Shown here in pieces: positions 2,385 through 29,093 of a stretch of DNA of 64,000 nt. Each line of letters begins with the position of its first letter. Position 1 is the stretch's first letter. The notes below the pieces were generated by a model, which did no database searches, had not been told where the DNA came from, and worked only from the letters and a program-made list of their open reading frames with translations. This stretch comes from the human T2T-CHM13v2.0 reference genome, Homo sapiens, in the NCBI GenBank assembly GCA_009914755.4, contig CP086569.2, forward strand, positions 352,001-416,000, given 5' to 3'. Position numbers and translations under genes: made by a program.

Positions 2385-3575
2385 CATCTCTCTCTCTTTC
2401 TCTATCTATTAATCTATCTATATATCTTACCTATCGATGTATCTATTATATCTATGTATCTATATCTATTTATGTATTCTATGTATCTATTTTATCTATG
2501 TATCTATATCTATTGTATGTATCTATTATATCTATGTATCTATATCTATTTATGTATTCTATGTATCTATTTTATCTATGTATCTATATCTATTGTATGT
2601 ATCTATTATATCTATGTATCTATATCTATTTATGTATTCTATGTATCTATTTTATCTATGTATCTATATCTATTTATTCTATGTATCTATTATATCTATG
2701 TATGTATATCTATTTATGTATTCTATGTATCTATTTATCTATATCTATTCTATGTATCTATTATATCTATGTATCCATATCTATTTAATGTATTCTATGT
2801 ATCTATTTTATCTATTTATCTATATCTATTGTATGTATCTATTATATCTATGTATCTATATCTATTTATGTATTCTATGTATCTATTTTATCTATTTATC
2901 TATATCTATTGTATGTATCTATTATATCTATGTATCTATATCTATTTATGTATTCTATGTATCTATTTTATCTATGTATCTATATCTATTGTATGTATCT
3001 ATTATATCTATGTATCTATATCTATTTATGTATTCTATGTATCTATTTTATCTATGTATCTATATCTATTTATTCTATGTATCTATTATATCTATGTATC
3101 TATATCTATTTATGTATTCTATGTATCTATTTATCTATATCTATTCTATGTATCTATTATATCTATGTATCCATATCTATGTATTCTATGTATCTATTTT
3201 ATCTATTTATCTATATCTATTTATTCTATGTATCTATTATATCTATGTATCTATATCTATTCTATGTATCTATTATATTTATCTATGTATCTATGTATGT
3301 ATGTATCATCTATCTTATCATGTATTTATTATATCTATTATCTATCTTATCTATCATCTATCTATTGCATCTATTATCTATCATCTATTATATCTATTTA
3401 TATCTATCATCTATGTATCTATTATATCTATCATCTATCTTATCTATCATCTATTATATCTATCATCTCTCATCTATGTATCTATGTATTATATCTATCT
3501 ATCATCTATCCATCTATCTATGTATGTATGTATCTGTCTATTATCTATCTATCCATCTATCTATCATCCAACTGG
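2385..3575. repeat. TATC/TCTA-based minisatellite with an 80-bp higher-order period (about 15 periods)
   Basis: The motif tattgtatgt recurs at 2511 and 2591 (80 bp apart); the whole block is tatctatgtatctatatctatttatgtattctatg... and ends in (CT)n at 3603-3632. Confidence 0.9.
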
Positions 3576-8216: not shown

Positions 8217-8815
8217 TAGTTCAACCATTGTGGAAGACAGTGTGGTGATTCCTCAAGGATCTACAACCAGAAATATCATTTGACCCAGCAATTTCATTAC
8301 TGGGTATATACCCAAAGGATTGTAAATCATTCTCCTATAAAGACACATGTGCACGTATGTTTTTGCGGCACTGTTCACAATAGCAAAGACTTGGAACCAA
8401 TCCAAATGCGCATCAATGACAGACTGGATGAAGAAAATGTGGCACATACACACCATGGAATACTATGCAGCCATGAAAAAGGATGAGTTCATGTCCTTTG
8501 CAGGGACATGGATGAAGCTGGAAACCATCATTCTCAGCAAATTCACACAGGAACAGAAAACCAAACACCGCATGTTCTCACCCATAAGTGGGAGTTGAAC
8601 AATGAGAACACATGGACACAGGGAGGGGAACATCACACACCAGGGCCTGTCAGGGGGTTGGGGGAAGGTGAGGGAGAGCATTAGGAGAAACACCTAATGT
8701 AGACGACGGGTTGATGGGTGCAGAAAACCACCATGGCACGTGTATACCTATGTAACCAACCTGCACGTTCTGCACATGTACCCCAGAACTTAAAGTATAA
8801 TAAAAAAAAAAAAAA
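8217..8815 (+). mobile_element. L1 LINE 3'-end fragment (ORF2 C-terminus plus 3'UTR plus poly-A), plus strand, inverted relative to 5825-6642
   Basis: agttcaaccattgtggaagacagtgtgg ... ggcacgtgtatacctatgtaaccaacctgcacgttctgcacatgtaccccagaacttaaagtataataaaaaaaaaaaaaa. Confidence 0.9.
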
Positions 8816-8829
8816 GGAAAGAAATCCTC

Positions 8830-9060
8830 TCTCCAAAGTTGATGATATTGGGAGGTGGGGTCTTTGGGAGGTGAGGAGGTCATAGGGTTGGAGGCTCATG
8901 GCTGGGATGACTGCCCTTATAAAAGGGTCGCCGGGGAGGCCCCTTCCACCACGTGAGGGCACAGAGAGAAGGCGCTGTCTATGAAGCAGGAGGCCTTTCC
9001 ATACACACAGAACCCACCACACCTGGATCTTTGTCTTCCAGCCTCCAGAGCTCTGAGCGG
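8830..9060. repeat. Fragment of an ancient interspersed repeat (motifs gggaggtggggtctttgggaggtga, cccttataaaag, ccagcctccagagctctgag); family not assigned
   Basis: Matches a very common primate repeat consensus from memory; the same family as 516-580. Confidence 0.4.
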
Positions 9061-9159
9061 TAAATGTCTGCGGTTTCTAAGTTAGCCCCTGTGTTCTGTT
9101 CTGGGATAGCCGCAGCCCCAGCCGGCTGGGGTAAGAGAGATAAGAGACCACCTGTGGCC

Positions 9160-11932
9160 CCTCTCCCTGCAACCCCTTTCCCTGTGGGAGCAGGAGCTCC
9201 TTCCCTCTCCCTGCAGCCCCTTTCCCTGTGGGAGCAGGAGCTCCTTCCCTCTCCCTGCATCCCCTTTCCCTGTGGGAGTGAGAGCTCCTTCCCTCTCCCT
9301 GCATCCCCTTTCCCTGTGGGAGTGAGAGCTCCTTCCCTCTCCCTGCATCCCCTTTCCCTGTGGGAGTGAGAGCTCCTTCCCTCTCCCTGCATCCCCTTTC
9401 CCTGTGGGAGCAGGAGCTCCTTCCCTCTCCCTGCATCCCCTTTCCCTGTGGGAGCAGGAGCTCCTTCCCTCTCCCTGCAGCCCCTTTCCCTGTGGGAGCA
9501 GGAGCTCCTTCCCTCTCCCTGCATCCCCTTTCCCTGTGGGAGCAGGAGCTCCTTCCCTCTCCCTGCAGCCCCTTTCCCTGTGGGAGTGAGAGCTCCTTCC
9601 CTCTCCCTGCAGCCCCTTTCCCTGTGGGAGTGAGAGCTCCTTCCCTCTCCCTGCATCCCCTTTCCCTGTGGGAGCAGGAGCTCCTTCCCTCTCCCTGCAT
9701 CCCCTTTCCCTGTGGGAGCAGGAGCTCCTTCCCTCTCCCTGCAGCCCCTTTCCCTGTGGGAGCAGGAGCTCCTTCCCTCTCCCTGCATCCCCTTTCCCTG
9801 TGGGAGTGAGAGCTCCTTCCCTCTCCCTGCATCCCCTTTCCCTGTGGGAGTGAGAGCTCCTTCCCTCTCCCTGCATCCCCTTTCCCTGTGGGAGTGAGAG
9901 CTCCTTCCCTCTCCCTGCATCCCCTTTCCCTGTGGGAGCAGGAGCTCCTTCCCTCTCCCTGCATCCCCTTTCCCTGTGGGAGTGAGAGCTCCTTCCCTCT
10001 CCCTGCAGCCCCTTTCCCTGTGGGAGCAGGAGCTCCTTCCCTCTGCCTGCATCCCCTTTCCCTGTGGGAGTGAGAGCTCCTTCCCTCTCCCTGCAGCCCC
10101 TTTCCCTGTGGGAGTGAGAGCTCCTTCCCTCTCCCTGCATCCCCTTTCCCTGTGGGAGTGAGAGCTCCTTCCCTCTCCCTGCAGCCCCTTTCCCTGTGGG
10201 AGCAGGAGCTCCTTCCCTCTCCCTGCAGCCCCTTTCCCTGTGGGAGTGAGAGCTCCTTCCCTCTCCCTGCATCCCCTTTCCCTGTGGGAGTGAGAGCTCC
10301 TTCCCTCTCCCTGCAGCCCCTTTCCCTGTGGGAGTGAGAGCTCCTTCCCTCTCCCTGCATCCCCTTTCCCTGTGGGAGTGAGAGCTCCTTCCCTCTCCCT
10401 GCAGCCCCTTTCCCTGTGGGAGCAGGAGCTCCTTCCCTCTCCCTGCATCCCCTTTCCCTGTGGGAGTGAGAGCTCCTTCCCTCTCCCTGCATCCCCTTTC
10501 CCTGTGGGAGTGAGAGCTCCTTCCCTCTCCCTGCAGCCCCTTTCCCTGTGGGAGCAGGAGCTCCTTCCCTCTCCCTGCATCCCCTTTCCCTGTGGGAGTG
10601 AGAGCTCCTTCCCTCTCCCTGCAGCCCCTTTCCCTGTGGGAGTGAGAGCTCCTTCCCTCTCCCTGCATCCCCTTTCCCTGTGGGAGCAGGAGCTCCTTCC
10701 CTCTCCCTGCAGCCCCTTTCCCTGTGGGAGCAGGAGCTCCTTCCCTCTCCCTGCATCCCCTTTCCCTGTGGGAGTGAGAGCTCCTTCCCTCTCCCTGCAT
10801 CCCCTTTCCCTGTGGGAGTGAGAGCTCCTTCCCTCTCCCTGCAGCCCCTTTCCCTGTGGGAGCAGGAGCTCCTTCCCTCTCCCTGCATCCCCTTTCCCTG
10901 TGGGAGTGAGAGCTCCTTCCCTCTCCCTGCATCCCCTTTCCCTGTGGGAGTGAGAGCTCCTTCCCTCTCCCTGCAGCCCCTTTCCCTGTGGGAGTGAGAG
11001 CTCCTTCCCTCTCCCTGCATCCCCTTTCCCTGTGGGAGTGAGAGCTCCTTCCCTCTCCCTGCAGCCCCTTTCCCTGTGGGAGCAGGAGCTCCTTCCCTCT
11101 CCCTGCATCCCCTTTCCCTGTGGGAGTGAAAGCTCCTTCCCTCTCCCTGCATCCCCTTTCCCTGTGGGAGTGAGAGCTCCTTCCCTCTCCCTGCAGCCCC
11201 TTTCCCTGTGGGAGCAGGAGCTCCTTCCCTCTCCCTGCATCCCCTTTCCCTGTGGGAGTGAGAGCTCCTTCCCTCTCCCTGCATCCCCTTTCCCTGTGGG
11301 AGTGAGAGCTCCTTCCCTCTCCCTGCAGCCCCTTTCCCTGTGGGAGTGAGAGCTCCTTCCCTCTCCCTGCATCCCCTTTCCCTGTGGGAGCAGGAGCTCC
11401 TTCCCTCTCCCTGCATCCCCTTTCCCTGTGGGAGCAGGAGCTCCTTCCCTCTCCCTGCATCCCCTTTCCCTGTGGGAGTGAGAGCTCCTTCCCTCTCCCT
11501 GCATCCCCTTTCCCTGTGGGAGTGAGAGCTCCTTCCCTCTCCCTGCAGCCCCTTTCCCTGTGGGAGCAGGAGCTCCTTCCCTCTCCCTGCATCCCCTTTC
11601 CCTGTGGGAGTGAGAGCTCCTTCCCTCTCCCTGCATCCCCTTTCCCTGTGGGAGTGAGAGCTCCTTCCCTCTCCCTGCAGCCCCTTTCCCTGTGGGAGTG
11701 AGAGCTCCTTCCCTCTCCCTGCATCCCCTTTCCCTGTGGGAGCAGGAGCTCCTTCCCTCTCCCTGCATCCCCTTTCCCTGTGGGAGCAGGAGCTCCTTCC
11801 CTCTCCCTGCATCCCCTTTCCCTGTGGGAGTGAGAGCTCCTTCCCTCTCCCTGCATCCCCTTTCCCTGTGGGAGCAGGAGCTCCTTCCCTCTCCCTGCAT
11901 CCCCTTTCCCTGTGGGAGCAGGAGCTCCTTCC
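9160..11932. repeat. Minisatellite, 44-bp unit x ~63 (cccctttccctgtgggagcaggagctccttccctctccctgcag)
   Basis: Exact 44-bp periodicity over 2773 bp. Two variant sites alternate between copies (gcaggagct vs gtgagagct; ctgcagcccc vs ctgcatcccc). The 1055-aa and 960-aa minus-strand ORFs have a 44-aa period because 3 x 44 bp = 132 bp. Confidence 0.97.
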
Positions 11933-12009
11933 TCCACTGAAGAGATGAAGGGTCTCCACTCTGGCTTTTAGCAGGGGCAGAGGTTGCAGGTTCTGTGGGG
12001 GCTGCAGAC

Positions 12010-12600
12010 TGGACTGTGCCTCTCTCTCTCTCTTTTTCTCTTCTCTGCATTTTCCCTCGCTTCTCTCTCTTTCTTTCTCTTCTCTCTGTTTTTTTCCTCT
12101 TTTTTTCTCTCCCCGTCTCTCCTCTTCCTCTCTCTCTCTCTCTCACGTCTCCGTGTTTCTCCCCCTCTTTCTCTCTGTCTCTCTTCTGTCTGTTTCATTC
12201 CTTTTTTCTCTCTGTGCCTGTCTCTCTCCTCTTCCTCTCCCTGTCTCTCTCCCCCTCTCTGTCTGTGTTTCTGCCCCTCTCTTTCTCTCTTCTCTCTGTT
12301 TTTTTCCTCTTTTTCTCTCCCCTTCTCTCTTCTCTTCCTCTCCGTCTGCCTCTGTCCCTCCCCTCTCTTTCTTCCTCTCCCTCTCTCTTCTCTCTCTCTC
12401 CCCTCTCCTCTTTCCTTTCTCTGTTTCATTCCTCTCTTTTCTCTCTCTTCTCTCCCTCTCCCTTCTCCCCCCTCCTCTCACTGCATCCCAATCCTTTCCT
12501 GGCCGTCCTCTCGCCCTCCTTCGCCTCCTCCTCTCCTGGAGGGTCCTACATTCTACTCCTGGCTCTTTCCTTCTCACTCTAGGTTCTCCCAGGGACTTCA
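12010..12600. repeat. Polypyrimidine (CT-rich) low-complexity tract, about 600 bp
   Basis: More than 95 percent C/T on the + strand: ctctctctctctttttctcttctctgcattttccctcgcttctctctctttc... Confidence 0.85.
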
Positions 12601-22085: not shown

Positions 22086-23052
22086 AAATAAACCAAAATA
22101 GGGAATGTCCACCTTGGAGGCTGATGTTCACGTCCACAGGTGCTGCCTCCCCAGACACTTACTCAACTCTGAAGCCTTCACCGGTAAGACAGCAGGGGTG
22201 GGGGGACGGCGGAGTCTTTGATCAGAAGAGGGCTCAACAGGCAAGGGGACCTGGTCTTTGCAAAAAACTCGGACTGCAGTACGGGCCGTGGGATTGGCCT
22301 CGTGTGTGGCCTGCACCCTTTTCCCCGTCAGGGAAGGACTGTTTGTTTGTTTTCTGCATCATCATCCATCACGCGGCATTGTCAGCCCTGACAGCTCAGG
22401 AGGGCCTTTTTCAACATCTCTTTATCTGACAGCGTTCATGCATCATAAGACAGCAAACAGAATTAGATCAAAGTCTACGAGGCCGTGTCGGCTCGGTGAG
22501 GAAGGCGAGCCAGCTTGTATCTTCATAAGAGAGGTGACAGTTGGTTTGAACTGGCGTTGGGCCGCAGAGGGCTGGGGAGTGCAGAGAGGACTGGGGACGA
22601 GGGCTGGGATTCTTGGCTTTCCAGGAGGAACAGCCCTGCTCCCTTCTGTCCACTTGCCACCTTCCTGGGTCTCTTTCCCCAGTAGGTGTGGTTCCTTCTG
22701 TCCTGCAGGCCACAGTGCAACCCAGGGCTTCGGAGCACGCGTTGATAGTCCTGATTTTTGTCTGACATCTTTGCAGAAAACGGAGAGCATCCCCTCAGGC
22801 AATGGGATACTGTCCCTCTGGCGCCGACCACACTCTGCGACTTGTCATGATGGGTAACAGGTGTGTCTGCAGCTTGACCTTGCAGCTGGGGCAGCCGCAG
22901 AGAGGTGCAGGAAGGAGAGCGATGGGAGAGAAAACGAAGGTGTGCTCAGTGGCGGAGAGAAATTCCAAAATTTCACTGGAGCGAGTTTAGCCCAGCTGGC
23001 TGCTGGAGAAACGGTTCTCCTGGATACTGTGGAGACTATATGGAGAATGAAT

Positions 23053-26000
23053 TCCTTCCTTCCTCCCTCCCTCTTTCTTTCTTTCTTTCCTTCTTTCTTC
23101 CTTTCTTTCTTTCCTTCTTCTTTTTCTTTCTTCTTTCTTTCTTTCTTCTCTCTCTCCTTCCTTATTCCTTTTCTTCCTTCCCTTCCCTCCCTTCCCTTTC
23201 CTTCTTTCCTTCCTTCCCTTCCTTCCTTCCTCTTTCCTTTCTTTCTCTTTTTCTTTCTTCTCTCTCTCTTTCCTTCCTTATTCCTCATCTTCCTTCCTCT
23301 TTCCTTTCTTTCTCTTTTTCTTTCTTCTCTCTCTTTCCTTCCTTATTCCTCATCTTCCTTCCTCTTTCCTTTCTTTCTCTTTTTCTTTCTTCTCTCTCTC
23401 TTTCCTTCCTTATTCCTCATCTTCCTTCCTCTTTCCTTTCTTTCTCTTTTTCTTTCTTCTCTCTCTTTCCTTCCTTATTCCTCATCTTCCTTCCTCTTTC
23501 CTTTCTTTCTCTTTTTCTTTCTTCTCTCTCTTTCCTTCCTTATTCCTCATCTTCCTTCCTCTTTCCTTTCTTTCTCTTTTTCTTTCTTCTCTCTCTTTCC
23601 TTCCTTATTCCTCATCTTCCTTCCTCTTTCCTTTCTTTCTCTTTTTCTTTCTTCTCTCTCTCTTTCCTTCCTTATTCCTCATCTTCCTTCCTCTTTCCTT
23701 TCTTTCTCTTTTTCTTTCTTCTCTCTCTCTGTCCTTCCTTATTCCTCATCTTCCTTCCTCTTTCCTTCCTTTCTCTTTTTCTTTCTTCTCTCTCTTTCCT
23801 TCCTTATTCCTCATCTTCCTTCCTCTTTCCTTTCTTTCTCTTTTTCTTTCTTCTCTCTCTCTTTCCTTCCTTATTCCTCATCTTCCTTCCTCTTTCCTTC
23901 CTTTCTCTTTTTCTTTCTTCTCTCTCTCTTTCCTTCCTTATTCCTCATCTTCCTTCCTCTTTCCTTTCTTTCTCTTTTTCTTTCTTCTCTCTCTCTGTCC
24001 TTCCTTATTCCTCATCTTCCTTCCTCTTTCCTTTCTTTCTCTTTTTCTTTCTTCTCTCTCTTTCCTTCCTTATTCCTCATCTTCCTTCCTCTTTCCTTCC
24101 TTTCTCTTTTTCTTTCTTCTCTCTCTCTTTCCTTCCTTCCCTTCCTTCCTTTCTCTTTCCTTTCTTTCTCTTTTTCTTTCTTCTCTCTCTCTTTCCTTCC
24201 TTATTCCTCATCTTCCTTCCTCTTTCCTTCCTTTCTCTTTTTCTTTCTTCTCTCTCTTTCCTTCCTTATTCCTCATCTTCCTTCCTCTTTCCTTCCTTTC
24301 TCTTTTTCTTTCTTCTCTCTCTCTTTCCTTCCTTATTCCTCATCTTCCTTCCTCTTTCCTTTCTTTCTCTTTTTCTTTCTTCTCTCTCTCTTTCCTTCCT
24401 TATTCCTCATCTTCCTTCCTCTTTCCTTCCTTTCTCTTTTTCTTTCTTCTCTCTCTCTTTCCTTCCTTATTCCTCATCTTCCTTCCTCTTTCCTTCCTTT
24501 CTCTTTTTCTTTCTTCTCTCTCTTTCCTTCCTTATTCCTCATCTTCCTTCCTCTTTCCTTTCTTTCTCTTTTTCTTTCTTCTCTCTCTTTCCTTCCTTAT
24601 TCCTCATCTTCCTTCCTCTTTCCTTTCTTTCTCTTTTTCTTTCTTCTCTCTCTTTCCTTCCTTATTCCTCATCTTCCTTCCTCTTTCCTTCCTTTCTCTT
24701 TTTCTTTCTTCTCTCTCTTTCCTTCCTTATTCCTCATCTTCCTTCCTCTTTCCTTTCTTTCTCTTTTTCTTTCTTCTCTCTCTCTTTCCTTCCTTATTCC
24801 TCATCTTCCTTCCTCTTTCCTTCCTTTCTCTTTTTCTTTCTTCTCTCTCTTTCCTTCCTTATTCCTCATCTTCCTTCCTCTTTCCTTTCTTTCTCTTTTT
24901 CTTTCTTCTCTCTCTTTCCTTCCTTATTCCTCATCTTCCTTCCTCTTTCCTTTCTTTCTCTTTTTCTTTCTTCTCTCTCTCTTTCCTTCCTTATTCCTCA
25001 TCTTCCTTCCTCTTTCCTTTCTTTCTCTTTTTCTTTCTTCTCTCTCTCTTTCCTTCCTTATTCCTTTTCTTCCTTCCTCTTTCCTTTCTTTCTCTTTTTC
25101 TTTCTTCTCTCTCTTTCCTTCCTTATTCCTCATCTTCCTTCCTCTTTCCTTCCTTTCTCTTTTTCTTTCTTCTCTCTCTTTCCTTCCTTATTCCTCATCT
25201 TCCTTCCTCTTTCCTTTCTTTCTCTTTTTCTTTCTTCTCTCTCTCTTTCCTTCCTTATTCCTCATCTTCCTTCCTCTTTCCTTCCTTTCTCTTTTTCTTT
25301 CTTCTCTCTCTCTTTCCTTCCTTATTCCTCATCTTCCTTCCTCTTTCCTTCCTTTCTCTTTTTCTTTCTTCTCTCTCTTTCCTTCCTTATTCCTCATCTT
25401 CCTTCCTCTTTCCTTTCTTTCTCTTTTTCTTTCTTCTCTCTCTTTCCTTCCTTATTCCTCATCTTCCTTCCTCTTTCCTTTCTTTCTCTTTTTCTTTCTT
25501 CTCTCTCTCTCTCCTTCCTTATTCCTCATCTTCCTTCCTCTTTCCTTCCTTTCTCTTTTTCTTTCTTCTCTCTCTCTTTCCTTCCTTATTCCTCATCTTC
25601 CTTCCTCTTTCCTTTCTTTCTCTTTTTCTTTCTTCTCTCTCTTTCCTTCCTTATTCCTCATCTTCCTTCCTCTTTCCTTCCTTTCTCTTTTTCTTTCTTC
25701 TCTCTCTTTCCTTCCTTATTCCTCATCTTCCTTCCTCTTTCCTTTCTTTCTCTTTTTCTTTCTTCTCTCTCTCTTTCCTTCCTTATTCCTCATCTTCCTT
25801 CCTCTTTCCTTCCTTTCTCTTTTTCTTTCTTCTCTCTCTCTTTCCTTCCTTATTCCTCATCTTCCTTCCTCTTTCCTTTCTTTCTCTTTTTCTTTCTTCT
25901 CTCTCTTTCCTTCCTTATTCCTCATCTTCCTTCCTCTTTCCTTTCTTTCTCTTTTTCTTTCTTCTCTCTCTCTTTCCTTCCTTATTCCTCATCTTCCTTC

Positions 26001-29000
26001 CTCTTTCCTTCCTTTCTCTTTTTCTTTCTTCTCTCTCTCTTTCCTTCCTTATTCCTCATCTTCCTTCCTCTTTCCTTTCTTTCTCTTTTTCTTTCTTCTC
26101 TCTCTTTCCTTCCTTATTCCTCATCTTCCTTCCTCTTTCCTTTCTTTCTCTTTTTCTTTCTTCTCTCTCTTTCCTTCCTTATTCCTCATCTTCCTTCCTC
26201 TTTCCTTTCTTTCTCTTTTTCTTTCTTCTCTCTCTTTCCTTCCTTATTCCTCATCTTCCTTCCTCTTTCCTTTCTTTCTCTTTTTCTTTCTTCTCTCTCT
26301 TTCCTTCCTTATTCCTCATCTTCCTTCCTCTTTCCTTTCTTTCTCTTTTTCTTTCTTCTCTCTCTTTCCTTCCTTATTCCTCATCTTCCTTCCTCTTTCC
26401 TTTCTTTCTCTTTTTCTTTCTTCTCTCTCTCTTTCCTTCCTTATTCCTCATCTTCCTTCCTCTTTCCTTTCTTTCTCTTTTTCTTTCTTCTCTCTCTCTG
26501 TCCTTCCTTATTCCTCATCTTCCTTCCTCTTTCCTTCCTTTCTCTTTTTCTTTCTTCTCTCTCTCTTTCCTTCCTTATTCCTCATCTTCCTTCCTCTTTC
26601 CTTCCTTTCTCTTTTTCTTTCTTCTCTCTCTTTCCTTCCTTATTCCTCATCTTCCTTCCTCTTTCCTTTCTTTCTCTTTTTCTTTCTTCTCTCTCTCTTT
26701 CCTTCCTTATTCCTCATCTTCCTTCCTCTTTCCTTCCTTTCTCTTTTTCTTTCTTCTCTCTCTTTCCTTCCTTATTCCTCATCTTCCTTCCTCTTTCCTT
26801 TCTTTCTCTTTTTCTTTCTTCTCTCTCTCTTTCCTTCCTTATTCCTCATCTTCCTTCCTCTTTCCTTCCTTTCTCTTTTTCTTTCTTCTCTCTCTCTTTC
26901 CTTCCTTATTCCTCATCTTCCTTCCTCTTTCCTTTCTTTCTCTTTTTCTTTCTTCTCTCTCTCTGTCCTTCCTTATTCCTCATCTTCCTTCCTCTTTCCT
27001 TTCTTTCTCTTTTTCTTTCTTCTCTCTCTTTCCTTCCTTATTCCTCATCTTCCTTCCTCTTTCCTTCCTTTCTCTTTTTCTTTCTTCTCTCTCTCTTTCC
27101 TTCCTTCCCTTCCTTCCTTTCTCTTTCCTTTCTTTCTCTTTTTCTTTCTTCTCTCTCTCTTTCCTTCCTTATTCCTCATCTTCCTTCCTCTTTCCTTCCT
27201 TTCTCTTTTTCTTTCTTCTCTCTCTTTCCTTCCTTATTCCTCATCTTCCTTCCTCTTTCCTTCCTTTCTCTTTTTCTTTCTTCTCTCTCTCTTTCCTTCC
27301 TTATTCCTCATCTTCCTTCCTCTTTCCTTCCTTTCTCTTTTTCTTTCTTCTCTCTCTCTTTCCTTCCTTATTCCTCATCTTCCTTCCTCTTTCCTTCCTT
27401 TCTCTTTTTCTTTCTTCTCTCTCTCTTTCCTTCCTTATTCCTCATCTTCCTTCCTCTTTCCTTTCTTTCTCTTTTTCTTTCTTCTCTCTCTTTCCTTCCT
27501 TATTCCTCATCTTCCTTCCTCTTTCCTTCCTTTCTCTTTTTCTTTCTTCTCTCTCTTTCCTTCCTTATTCCTCATCTTCCTTCCTCTTTCCTTTCTTTCT
27601 CTTTTTCTTTCTTCTCTCTCTTTCCTTCCTTATTCCTCATCTTCCTTCCTCTTTCCTTTCTTTCTCTTTTTCTTTCTTCTCTCTCTCTTTCCTTCCTTAT
27701 TCCTCATCTTCCTTCCTCTTTCCTTCCTTTCTCTTTTTCTTTCTTCTCTCTCTCTTTCCTTCCTTATTCCTCATCTTCCTTCCTCTTTCCTTCCTTTCTC
27801 TTTTTCTTTCTTCTCTCTCTCTTTCCTTCCTTATTCCTCATCTTCCTTCCTCTTTCCTTCCTTTCTCTTTTTCTTTCTTCTCTCTCTTTCCTTCCTTATT
27901 CCTCATCTTCCTTCCTCTTTCCTTTCTTTCTCTTTTTCTTTCTTCTCTCTCTCTTTCCTTCCTTATTCCTCATCTTCCTTCCTCTTTCCTTTCTTTCTCT
28001 TTTTCTTTCTTCTCTCTCTCTTTCCTTCCTTATTCCTCATCTTCCTTCCTTTCTCTTTCCTTTCTTTCTCTTTTTCTTTCTTCTCTCTCTCTTTCCTTCC
28101 TTATTCCTCATCTTCCTTCCTTCCTCTTTCCTTCCTTTCTCTTTTTCTTTCTTCTCTCTCTCTTTCCTTCCTTATTCCTCATCTTCCTTCCTCTTTCCTT
28201 TCTTTCTCTTTTTCTTTCTTCTCTCTCTCTTTCCTTCCTTATTCCTCATCTTCCTTCCTCTTTCCTTTCTTTCTCTTTTTCTTTCTTCTCTCTCTCTTTC
28301 CTTCCTTATTCCTCATCTTCCTTCCTCTTTCCTTTCTTTCTCTTTTTCTTTCTTCTCTCTCTCTTTCCTTCCTTATTCCTCATCTTCCTTCCTCTTTCCT
28401 TTCTTTCTCTTTTTCTTTCTTCTCTCTCTCTTTCCTTCCTTATTCCTCATCTTCCTTCCTCTTTCCTTTCTTTCTCTTTTTCTTTCTTCTCTCTCTCTTT
28501 CCTTCCTTATTCCTCATCTTCCTTCCTCTTTCCTTCCTTTCTCTTTTTCTTTCTTCTCTCTCTCTTTCCTTCCTTATTCCTCATCTTCCTTCCTCTTTCC
28601 TTCCTTTCTCTTTTTCTTTCTTCTCTCTCTCTTTCCTTCCTTATTCCTCATCTTCCTTCCTCTTTCCTTCCTTTCTCTTTTTCTTTCTTCTCTCTCTCTT
28701 TCCTTCCTTATTCCTCATCTTCCTTCCTCTTTCCTTCCTTTCTCTTTTTCTTTCTTCTCTCTCTCTTTCCTTCCTTATTCCTCATCTTCCTTCCTCTTTC
28801 CTTCCTTTCTCTTTTTCTTTCTTCTCTCTCTCTTTCCTTCCTTATTCCTCATCTTCCTTCCTCTTTCCTTCCTTTCTCTTTTTCTTTCTTCTCTCTCTCT
28901 TTCCTTCCTTATTCCTCATCTTCCTTCCTCTTTCCTTCCTTTCTCTTTTTCTTTCTTCTCTCTCTTTCCTTCCTTATTCCTTTTCTTCCTTCCCTCCCTC

Positions 29001-29057
29001 CCTCCATCCTTCCTTCCTTTTTCTCTTCTTTCCTTCTCTTCTTTCTTCTTTCTTTCT

Positions 29058-29093
<36 letters not shown>

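What the first reader, a model, noticed from the sequence alone, without database searches (positions are those of the whole stretch)
9160..11932. 44-bp minisatellite x 63 with two interleaved variant positions and a G-run-rich complementary strand
Period exactly 44 bp. Two variant sites (gcaggagct/gtgagagct and gcagcccc/gcatcccc) combine into at least four unit types arranged in an irregular order, the pattern minisatellite-variant-repeat mapping exploits in hypervariable loci. On the minus strand each unit reads ctgcagggagagggaaggagctcctgctcccacagggaaagggg, i.e. four or more GGG runs per 44 bp, a classic G4-prone minisatellite strand like those at recombination-active subtelomeric VNTRs. The huge minus-strand ORF (1055 aa, 44-aa period) is an artefact.
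Basis: seen in the sequence. Interest (0 to 1): 0.55.

Follow-up and report, generated by a model that had tools for sequence, protein, structure and literature searches.

The report
G4-prone hypervariable minisatellite in human PAR1
This is a real 63-copy, 44-bp non-coding tandem repeat in the human X/Y pseudoautosomal region, already catalogued as a long G-quadruplex-prone tract; it differs in copy number and internal repeat order between two human haplotypes, as a classic hypervariable minisatellite does.

Summary
The array spans 9159-11932 and has 63.0 copies of exactly 44 bp with no indels. Two variant sites (T/G, and a linked TGA/CAG triplet) give four main unit types plus three singletons. 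On the minus strand, 62 of 63 units carry a canonical G4 motif, G3-N3-G4-N5-G3-N3-G3, with G4Hunter 1.79-1.83. The 1055-aa ORF is an artefact.

The same array is printed in Williams et al. 2020 (NAR 48:5907) as a "long G4-capable region". Its hg38 position is chrX:512,028-515,060, intergenic, about 0.51 Mb from the Xp/Yp telomere. That places it in PAR1, where the male crossover rate is about 24 cM/Mb.

The hg38 copy is 3033 bp (about 70 units), against 2774 bp here. The first 23 units are identical, with 0 substitutions in 985 nt. The remaining 40-46 units align no better than shuffled orders. So both length and variant order differ, and the difference is polar.

No PRDM9 13-mer, Jeffreys core or mouse mo-2 similarity was found. 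The G4 loops are purine-rich and 3/5/3 nt long, unlike the short pyrimidine loops shown to destabilise arrays in yeast.

G4 folding and germline mutation rate remain untested.

The parts
9159..11932 (-). The 44-bp minisatellite array: 63 units plus 2 bp. The G-rich, G4-prone strand is the minus strand. It corresponds to hg38 chrX:512,028-515,060 (the LG4 of Williams 2020).
9159..10170 (.). Telomere-side block of 23 units whose variant order is identical to the hg38 allele (0 substitutions over 9186-10170). This is the stable end of the array.
10171..11932 (.). Centromere-side block of 40 units whose order is unrelated to the corresponding 46 units of hg38. This is the variable end. It contains the duplicated 9-unit block AACAADBBA (units 45-53 and 53-61).
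10039..10082 (.). Singleton unit 21 (CCCTCTGCC...). It breaks one G-run, which is why there are 62 rather than 63 PQS. It is shared with hg38, so it serves as an allele-independent landmark.
9159..9202 (.). First unit, a singleton with A at variant site 1.
11095..11138 (.). Singleton unit 45 (GTGAAAGC). A similar TGAA-bearing unit occurs at a different position in hg38.
8979..12146 (-). Artefactual 1055-aa ORF. It is one of three open minus-strand frames across the array.
12020..12471 (+). CT-rich low-complexity tract that flanks the variable end of the array.
12515..12527 (+). The PRDM9 13-mer match nearest the array (CCTCCTTCGCCTC), about 580 bp beyond the variable end. Its proximity is not statistically significant; it is only a lead.

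Best explanation
The feature is a non-coding, intergenic, GC-rich minisatellite (VNTR) in human pseudoautosomal region 1, at hg38 chrX:512,028-515,060, about 0.51 Mb from the Xp/Yp telomere. From my own knowledge, not checked here, it lies between PPP2R3B and SHOX.

It most likely has no sequence-specific cellular function. It is best read as a by-product and a recorder of very high local repeat turnover.

Shown: every unit places a three-tetrad G4 motif (GGG-AAA-GGGG-MTGCA-GGG-AGA-GGG) on the minus strand. This is separated from the next G4 by a 20-nt linker that holds a palindrome. The palindrome is 10 bp (AGGAGCTCCT) in CAG units and 6 bp (GAGCTC) in TGA units. Both common variant sites lie outside the G-runs, one in the central G4 loop and one in the linker.

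Shown: two human alleles differ by about 7 units and have a completely different variant order in the centromere-side two thirds, while the telomere-side 23 units are identical.

Inferred: units are gained, lost and reshuffled mainly by recombination-associated repair, that is, gene conversion or SDSA with slipped re-annealing, and unequal sister or allelic exchange. This repair would be initiated preferentially on the centromere-proximal side, as at the polar minisatellites MS32, MS31A and MS205. It would be favoured by the obligatory male X-Y crossover in PAR1. Multi-unit slippage accounts for the 8-unit block duplication.

Inferred: G4 and hairpin formation on the displaced G-rich strand probably adds replication-associated slippage. 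The loop composition suggests this is the lesser contribution.
For: One PQS per unit with a high G4Hunter score. ViennaRNA with DNA parameters and G4 enabled puts one G4 per unit in the MFE and pairs the 10-nt palindromic linkers. The energy is -32 to -40 kcal/mol per three units, against -17 to -27 without G4.

Locus identity: the unit k-mers were found 58-61 times in Supplementary Information 4 of Williams 2020, under the header hg38_chrX_510077_515075. The master table row gives strand N, refined position X:512028-515060, 3033 bp, 275 GGG (90.7 per kb), INTER, no regulatory annotation and 64 potential kissing loops. The window array has 90.5 CCC per kb and the same 10-bp and 6-bp palindromes.

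Allele comparison: 23 units are identical, then the unit-level edit distance is 23 over 40-46 units. The alignment score of 1 is below the shuffle mean of 4.3 (P = 0.88). There are 0 substitutions in the first 985 nt.

Homogeneity: only 3 private substitutions occur in 2772 bp, and there are 0 CpG.

Block duplication and non-random order.

Regional recombination: the male rate is 24 cM/Mb at 200-700 kb of PAR1. PAR1 is unusually rich in tandem repeats, and 32% of this window is tandem repeat.

Non-coding status: no Pfam hit, homologue or Rfam family, and the period is not a multiple of 3.
Against: Only two alleles were compared. One of them was read from machine-extracted PDF text of a clone-based reference, so cloning or assembly rearrangement in either copy cannot be excluded.

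Polarity inferred from two alleles could also reflect a single old crossover inside the array.

No PRDM9-A 13-mer lies in the units; the best match has 2 of 8 specified positions wrong. No DSB map was available, so the flanking-hotspot step is inference.

G4 folding at this locus has never been tested. Williams 2020 validated only transcribed LG4s.

The loops (AAA, MTGCA, AGA) are purine-rich and 3-5 nt long. The G4s that destabilised CEB1 and CEB25 arrays in yeast had short, mainly pyrimidine loops and a high Tm.

A neutral, function-less status is a default assumption, not a demonstrated fact.
Confidence: 0.8

Rival explanations
1. Replication-driven instability is the main engine. G4s, with or without linker hairpins, on the minus strand stall forks in mitotic germline divisions. 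Slippage or template switching then generates the length and order changes, with meiotic recombination playing little part.
For: There are 62 tandem canonical PQS, G4Hunter is about 1.8, and the predicted MFE holds one G4 per unit. LG4s as a class show excess indels and CNV breakpoints, and a DIP2C LG4 accumulates deletions and duplications in yeast. G4-forming CEB1 is unstable in pif1-delta or Phen-DC3-treated yeast.
Against: Pure replication slippage does not obviously produce strong polarity, with 23 untouched units at one end and complete reshuffling at the other. The loop lengths and composition are not of the type that caused instability in yeast. The locus lies in the region of the genome with the highest male crossover rate.
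Confidence: 0.25
2. The array is a functional cis-regulatory or architectural element. It would act as an LG4 enhancer or a 'G4-kissing' higher-order structure that influences nearby genes such as SHOX.
For: Williams 2020 report that 217 of 301 LG4s overlap enhancers. They list 64 potential kissing loops for this locus. The palindromic linkers are real.
Against: For this particular locus the same table gives regulatory capacity 'NA', INTER, and no gene within 5 kb. There is no CpG island and there are 0 CpGs in the array. Large differences in copy number and order between alleles argue against a tight constraint. Variant sites show no significant avoidance of G-runs: two common sites fall outside G-runs, which cover 30% of the unit, and one singleton breaks a G-run.
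Confidence: 0.05
3. The difference between the window and hg38 is not biological. It would reflect clone instability, mis-assembly of a perfect 44-bp repeat, or errors in the extracted PDF text.
For: The hg38 PAR1 sequence is clone-based. The print lost single bases at line ends. Long near-identical repeats are error-prone in assembly.
Against: The text errors are single-base drops at line ends and cannot change unit types. The first 985 nt agree perfectly. The published refined length of 3033 bp independently matches the parsed count of about 69-70 units. The divergent parts differ at dozens of unit positions.
Confidence: 0.08
4. The array is a multi-copy PRDM9 binding platform, like the minisatellite-like PRDM9 ChIP peaks that Hinch 2014 describe in PAR1. 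Under this reading it is itself the hotspot.
For: Hinch 2014 report that many PAR1 PRDM9 peaks are tandem repeats with periods of 4-101 bp carrying 5-12 or more motif copies.
Against: No CCNCCNTNNCCNC match lies within 9159-11932. The best match in any unit type, on either strand, has 2 mismatches among the 8 specified bases.
Confidence: 0.05
5. The long minus-strand ORF encodes a repetitive protein with a 44-aa period.
For: There is an open frame of 1055 aa.
Against: All three frames are open, simply because the unit lacks stop triplets. A 44-bp period is not a multiple of 3, so each variant is read in three frames. There is no Pfam family, no homologue among 5.8 billion clusters and no called gene on record. 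The locus is annotated as intergenic.
Confidence: 0.01

Closest known systems
LG4 'long G4-capable region' hg38 chrX:512,028-515,060 (Williams et al. 2020, NAR 48:5907)
   Same: It is the same locus. The unit sequence is identical, the first 23 units are identical, and the G-triplet density is the same (90.5 against 90.7 per kb). The 10-bp and 6-bp palindromes and the G-rich strand orientation also match.
   Different: The window carries a different allele: 63 units and 2774 bp, against about 70 units and 3033 bp, with a different order after unit 23. The paper did not describe the variant-repeat structure, the polarity or the PAR1 context. It also did not test this locus experimentally.
Classical hypervariable human minisatellites typed by MVR-PCR (MS32/D1S8, MS31A/D7S21, MS205/D16S309). 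Comparison is from established knowledge.
   Same: It is a GC-rich array with strand asymmetry and tens of units of 20-50 bp. A few variant positions are interspersed along the array. It lies in a subtelomeric region. One end is stable and the other variable between alleles.
   Different: There is no good match to the Jeffreys core GGGCAGGANG or the 16-mer core; the best matches have 2 of 9 and 5 of 16 specified positions mismatched. The germline mutation rate and a flanking hotspot have not been demonstrated. The locus is pseudoautosomal, not autosomal.
G4-forming minisatellites CEB1 (D2S90) and CEB25 (D10S180)
   Same: Each unit has one G4-capable motif on one strand, and the array has tens of units.
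   Different: The loops are AAA, MTGCA and AGA: purine-rich, 3-5 nt. The destabilising CEB1 and CEB25 forms have loops of 0-1 nt or short pyrimidine loops and a high Tm. No biophysical or yeast data exist for this motif.
Mouse PAR mo-2 minisatellite (31 bp)
   Same: It is a large minisatellite array in a pseudoautosomal region that must receive an obligatory male crossover.
   Different: There is no sequence similarity (local alignment P = 0.13). The array is 2.8 kb and single-locus, whereas mo-2 arrays make up about 25% of the mouse PAR. There is no evidence of REC114, MEI4 or ANKRD31 recruitment in human.

Membership tests
Minisatellite / VNTR | Head-to-tail tandem array with a unit of about 10-100 bp and a length of 0.5-30 kb | tested here: met
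   Period 44, 63.0 copies, 2774 bp, 0 indels
Minisatellite / VNTR | Copy number varies between alleles | tested here: met
   63 units and 2774 bp here, against 3033 bp and about 70 units in hg38. Only two alleles were compared.
MVR-type hypervariable minisatellite (Jeffreys) | Interspersed variant repeat units whose order differs between alleles | tested here: met
   Four main unit types. The order after unit 23 is unrelated between the two alleles: edit distance 23, and the alignment is no better than shuffles.
MVR-type hypervariable minisatellite (Jeffreys) | Polarity: variation is concentrated at one end of the array | tested here: inconclusive
   The 23 telomere-side units are identical and the rest has diverged. 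This is consistent with polarity, but n = 2 alleles.
MVR-type hypervariable minisatellite (Jeffreys) | Shared G-rich core sequence GGGCAGGANG | tested here: not met
   The best match has 2 mismatches in the 10-mer and 5 in the 16-mer core.
MVR-type hypervariable minisatellite (Jeffreys) | High germline mutation rate (0.5% per gamete or more) | not testable with these tools
   This needs sperm small-pool PCR or long-read pedigrees.
G4-forming minisatellite (CEB1/CEB25 type) | A G4-capable motif in every unit on one strand | tested here: met
   62 of 63 units carry G3N3G4N5G3N3G3. G4Hunter is 1.79-1.83.
G4-forming minisatellite (CEB1/CEB25 type) | G4 folding demonstrated in vitro (CD, NMR, K+-dependent polymerase stop) | not testable with these tools
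   Only a ViennaRNA prediction is available. Williams 2020 tested transcribed LG4s only.
G4-forming minisatellite (CEB1/CEB25 type) | Short, pyrimidine-biased loops associated with G4-dependent instability | tested here: not met
   The loops are AAA, (A/C)TGCA and AGA, to be compared with the rule summarised.
LG4 (Williams 2020) | At least 121 G-triplets per 1.5-kb window on one strand | tested here: met
   The maximum is 137 CCC per 1.5 kb. Windows passing the threshold span 8961-12110. The criterion is given.
LG4 (Williams 2020) | Listed in the published master list | tested here: met
   Row X:511792-516234, refined X:512028-515060. The sequence is printed.
PRDM9-motif tandem repeat of PAR1 (Hinch 2014) | Multiple copies of CCNCCNTNNCCNC within the repeat | tested here: not met
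   0 matches in the array. The best match has 2 mismatches.
mo-2-like PAR minisatellite | Sequence relatedness to the 31-bp mo-2 unit | tested here: not met
   Local alignment score 9, against a shuffle mean of 7.2 (P = 0.13).
mo-2-like PAR minisatellite | Recruits REC114/MEI4/MEI1/ANKRD31/IHO1 aggregates in spermatocytes | not testable with these tools
   This needs immuno-FISH or ChIP in human testis.
Coding tandem repeat | Period is a multiple of 3, with one constrained frame and homologues | tested here: not met
   The period is 44. Three frames are open, and there is no Pfam hit and no homologue.

The most novel reading that the evidence does not exclude
The exceptionally dense tandem-repeat landscape of distal human PAR1 may act as a cis-acting platform for meiotic DSB formation. 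This 44-bp G4/palindrome array, together with its neighbours in the window (a 6-kb polypyrimidine 67-bp array, (ATCC)n and a 29-bp array), would help load the DSB machinery or remodel the chromosome axis. That would help secure the obligatory X-Y crossover. It would be a sequence-unrelated functional analogue of the mouse mo-2 minisatellite. Monteiro et al. 2022 already raise this possibility for PAR1 repeats in general. Nothing here tests it for this array.
Probability: 0.04. Interest if true: 0.8.

Novelty: already known. Interest (0 to 1): 0.27.

Why it matters
The practical value is modest. The array is a clean, indel-free MVR-type marker 0.5 Mb from the Xp/Yp telomere. Its 23-unit stable anchor and highly variable distal part could be read directly from long-read haplotypes. 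That would let one follow male-specific PAR1 recombination, repeat turnover, and X-versus-Y haplotype exchange.

It is also a natural test case for two questions: whether a G4 with medium-length purine loops destabilises a repeat, and whether palindromic inter-G4 linkers matter. The TGA/CAG variant switches the linker palindrome between 6 and 10 bp.

None of this changes current understanding. The locus and its G4 potential are already catalogued, and its behaviour fits the textbook picture of subtelomeric GC-rich minisatellites.

Tried and rejected
Searches that found nothing:
- A full-text search of papers for six unit k-mers gave 0 hits. The hit came only from searching supplementary files of a candidate paper.
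- The keywords '44-bp' plus 'minisatellite' returned irrelevant papers.
- The supplement of Course 2021 is not held.
- A search on the DXYS14, DXYS15, DXYS17 and DXYS20 locus names gave no link to this array.
- A search on SHOX, VNTR and PAR1 gave no locus-specific study.
- Exact-pattern scans of the metagenome and prokaryote genome collections gave 0 hits, twice each.
- The 1055-aa ORF gave nothing against the protein database, Pfam or the look-up of encoding contigs.
- Rfam found no family in the window.

Ideas rejected:
- Splice-site toggling. The G variant creates ...CCCTGCAG| and the TGA variant creates A|GTGAGA, so the two variant sites switch acceptor-like and donor-like motifs. The locus is annotated as intergenic with no gene within 5 kb, and there is no transcript evidence, so I treat this as coincidence.
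- Selection to preserve the G-runs. There are too few variant sites to test this, and one singleton does break a G-run.
- Origin from a transposable element. The upstream flank looks like an L1 3' end followed by an old MER/MaLR-like fragment. This rests only on my memory of consensus sequences and a weak hit (E = 0.013), so it is not relied on.
- The PRDM9 13-mer, the THE1 13-mer, the Jeffreys core, chi and mo-2 all gave no convincing match.
- The shared 6-unit block CDADAC, in different positions in the two alleles, is about what chance predicts.
Full report
**1. Observation**

Tandem Repeats Finder reports one array at 9159-11932 with period 44, 63.0 copies, 95% matches, 0% indels and score 4834. 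A degenerate 44-mer matches 63 times in perfect register, against 0 expected in shuffles.

Cutting the array into units gives two variable sites:
- Column 13 is T in 41 units, G in 21 and A in 1.
- Columns 32-34 are TGA in 37 units and CAG in 26. The three bases always change together.

This gives four main unit types:

| Type | Site 1 / site 2 | Count |
|---|---|---|
| A | T / TGA | 26 |
| B | T / CAG | 13 |
| C | G / CAG | 12 |
| D | G / TGA | 9 |

There are also three singleton units. The variant-repeat code is ECAAABBCBDDBBCAAABACFDACDADACAACADBCAACAADACGACAADBBAACAADBBABB.

The order is irregular but not random. A 9-unit block, AACAADBBA, is repeated with an 8-unit offset (units 45-53 and 53-61; shuffle P about 0.016). 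G-type units avoid each other (3 GG against 19 GT adjacencies; Fisher P = 0.014). The two sites within one unit are only weakly associated (P = 0.06). These patterns point to multi-unit duplications.

Apart from the two common sites there are only 3 private substitutions in 2772 bp, and the array has no CpG. The array is therefore young or actively homogenised.

**2. G4 claim**

On the minus strand each unit reads ...GGGAAAGGGG(A/C)TGCAGGGAGAGGG... and has exactly four G-runs.
- There are 62 non-overlapping canonical G4 motifs in the array, against 8 on that strand in the remaining 61 kb.
- The missing one is unit 21, whose private C-to-G change breaks a G-run.
- The 24-nt core scores 1.83 (A loop) or 1.79 (C loop) on G4Hunter.
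- 20% of the 25-nt windows in the array reach 1.5 or more, against 1.7% for the whole window.

With DNA parameters and G4s enabled, the ViennaRNA MFE places one three-tetrad G4 in every unit. It lowers the energy of a trimer from between -17 and -27 kcal/mol to between -32 and -40 kcal/mol. The G4 energy model used there was derived for RNA, so this is indicative only.

The 20-nt linker between successive G4s holds a palindrome. It is AGGAGCTCCT (10 bp) in CAG units and GAGCTC (6 bp) in TGA units. In the prediction, the 10-bp linkers of neighbouring units pair.

Both common variant sites lie outside the G-runs, one in the central loop and one in the linker. G-runs cover only 30% of the unit and one singleton does break a run, so there is no statistical evidence that the G-runs are protected.

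**3. The ORF**

All three minus-strand frames are open across the array (1055, 960 and 951 aa). This is because the unit contains no stop triplet in any frame. The 44-aa period is simply 3 x 44 bp. The translation has no Pfam family and no homologue in the protein collection, and no called gene is on record.

**4. Where it is**

The window is primate DNA. About 32% of the window is tandem repeat. There is no genuine CpG island and no Rfam family.

Searches of paper main text, prokaryote genomes and metagenomes found nothing. A search of the supplementary files of Williams et al. 2020 (NAR 48:5907, PMC7293029) found the unit 58-61 times, under the header hg38_chrX_510077_515075.

Their master table lists the locus as follows:
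- G-rich strand negative
- refined position X:512028-515060, 3033 bp
- 275 G-triplets (90.7 per kb)
- 462 dbSNP entries
- regulatory capacity 'NA'
- intergenic, with no gene within 5 kb
- 64 potential 'kissing loops'

The window array has the same G-triplet density (90.5 per kb). It passes their criterion, with 137 triplets per 1.5 kb against the required 121. It shows the same 10-bp and 6-bp palindromes that they annotated.

Position 0.51 Mb on Xp lies inside pseudoautosomal region 1. From my own knowledge, not checked here, this is between PPP2R3B and SHOX; the table does place PPP2R3B at about 0.34 Mb. The G-rich strand runs 5' to 3' toward the telomere, like the TTAGGG strand. This is an inference from the strand and coordinates.

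Hinch et al. 2014 give a male crossover rate of about 24 cM/Mb and a female rate of 0.5 cM/Mb for the 200-700 kb interval of PAR1. Monteiro et al. [quoted passage not shown]

**5. Polymorphism**

The printed hg38 sequence is machine-read from a PDF. It parses into 69 units plus a partial one, which agrees with the published 3033 bp. The window has 63 units in 2774 bp.
- hg38 code: CCAAABBCBDDBBCAAABACADABAABAAAABBACBBAACBDAADBAAAABAAACABAADDAACDADAC
- window code (singletons collapsed): CCAAABBCBDDBBCAAABACADACDADACAACADBCAACAADACAACAADBBAACAADBBABB

The first 23 units are identical, including the private CTCTGCC unit 21. At nucleotide level, window 9186-10170 shows 0 substitutions against the print. 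The only differences are three single-base gaps at PDF line ends.

Beyond unit 23 the two alleles cannot be aligned better than shuffled orders. The score is 1 against a shuffle mean of 4.3 (P = 0.88), and the unit edit distance is 23 over 40-46 units.

Three things follow:
- The window is a human haplotype other than hg38.
- Both length and variant order differ between the two alleles.
- The difference is polar, with the telomere-side third stable and the centromere-side two thirds reshuffled.

The caveats are that only two alleles were compared, one comes from a clone-based reference, and either copy could carry a repeat assembly error.

**6. Mechanism**

The best-supported reading is a functionless hypervariable minisatellite whose units turn over by recombination-associated repair. 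The mechanisms would be gene conversion or SDSA with out-of-register re-annealing, and unequal exchange. Repair would be initiated preferentially beyond the centromere-side end, as at the polar minisatellites MS32, MS31A and MS205 (established knowledge). It would be fuelled by the obligatory male crossover in PAR1.

The steps that are shown are the anatomy, the location, the two-allele difference, the polarity and the multi-unit duplications. The steps that are inferred are meiotic initiation and a flanking hotspot.

The array has no PRDM9 13-mer. There are 0 matches inside it, and the best match in any unit has 2 of 8 specified bases wrong. One match lies at 12515-12527, about 580 bp beyond the variable end, after a CT-rich tract. 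With 6 matches in 64 kb against 3.4 expected, this proximity is not significant.

G4-driven replication slippage is a plausible co-driver. However, in yeast only G4s with very short, mainly pyrimidine loops and a high Tm destabilised CEB1 and CEB25 arrays (Piazza 2015 and 2017, as summarised). The loops here are AAA, (A/C)TGCA and AGA. Williams et al. validated G4 folding only for transcribed LG4s, not for this intergenic one.

**7. Comparison with known families**

The locus is a member of the minisatellite/VNTR class and of the published LG4 list.
- It behaves like the Jeffreys MVR minisatellites but lacks their core sequence.
- It resembles the G4 minisatellites CEB1 and CEB25 in having one G4 per unit, but not in loop type.
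- It is not a PRDM9-motif repeat.
- It has no similarity to the mouse PAR minisatellite mo-2 (P = 0.13).
- A regulatory role is unsupported for this locus, given 'NA' regulatory capacity and an intergenic position.

**8. Verdict**

The element is of a well-known kind, and the locus itself is already catalogued as G4-prone.

What this analysis adds:
- the PAR1 assignment
- the explicit variant-repeat maps of two alleles
- the polar pattern
- the finding that one variant site switches a linker palindrome between 6 and 10 bp

Interest is modest. The only high-interest reading is that PAR1 repeat arrays such as this one act as a platform for the meiotic break machinery, as mo-2 does in mouse. That reading is speculative and untested.

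Noticed in passing
window 23052-29331: A tandem array of about 6.2 kb with period 67 (about 91 copies, with 132-bp and 199-bp higher-order rows). It is almost pure polypyrimidine on the + strand: A 170, C 2283, G 4, T 3567 in 23087-29110, with GC skew -1.0. This is a very long H-DNA/triplex-prone tract only 11 kb from the 44-bp array.
   Followed up: partly
window 49852-51723: An (ATCC)n microsatellite of about 470 copies (1.9 kb), with degenerate CCAT/ACCC-type repeats on both sides.
   Followed up: no
window 55285-56926: A second large minisatellite with a 29-bp unit, TGGAGAGGGGATATATGGAGAGGCTGCTC, about 56 copies and 91% matches. It is G-rich on the + strand but has only one run of three or more Gs per unit, so it is not G4-dense. 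No paper contains its sequence.
   Followed up: partly
window 32677-33945: An Alu-derived VNTR. The unit, of 153-171 bp, is made of an Alu 3' half plus a (TAT)n tract, and is repeated 6-8 times.
   Followed up: no
window 2401-3565: An AT-rich nested tandem array (TCTATGTATCTA...-type) with periods 17, 36, 80 and 396, about 1.1 kb long.
   Followed up: no
window 42971-43202: A small 46-bp repeat, 5 copies, 88% matches (ACATTTCCATGCATTCCACACCCAATATGGTGGCCGTAGGATGTTG). No paper contains it.
   Followed up: partly
window 12020-12527: A CT-rich low-complexity tract lies directly beyond the variable end of the 44-bp array. It is followed by the PRDM9 13-mer match nearest the array (CCTCCTTCGCCTC, 12515-12527). 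This is a possible but unproven flanking hotspot.
   Followed up: partly
window 1-64000: The window as a whole has about 32% tandem-repeat coverage and about 73 Alu matches, so roughly 60% is repeat. It has no genuine CpG island. This is consistent with published remarks that PAR1 is exceptionally rich in tandem repeats.
   Followed up: partly
window 8300-9140: The upstream flank looks like an L1 3' end with a poly(A) tail (about 8300-8915), followed by an old MER/MaLR-like fragment that ends about 20 bp before the array. The identification rests on memory of consensus sequences and one weak BLAST hit (E = 0.013), so it is unverified.
   Followed up: partly
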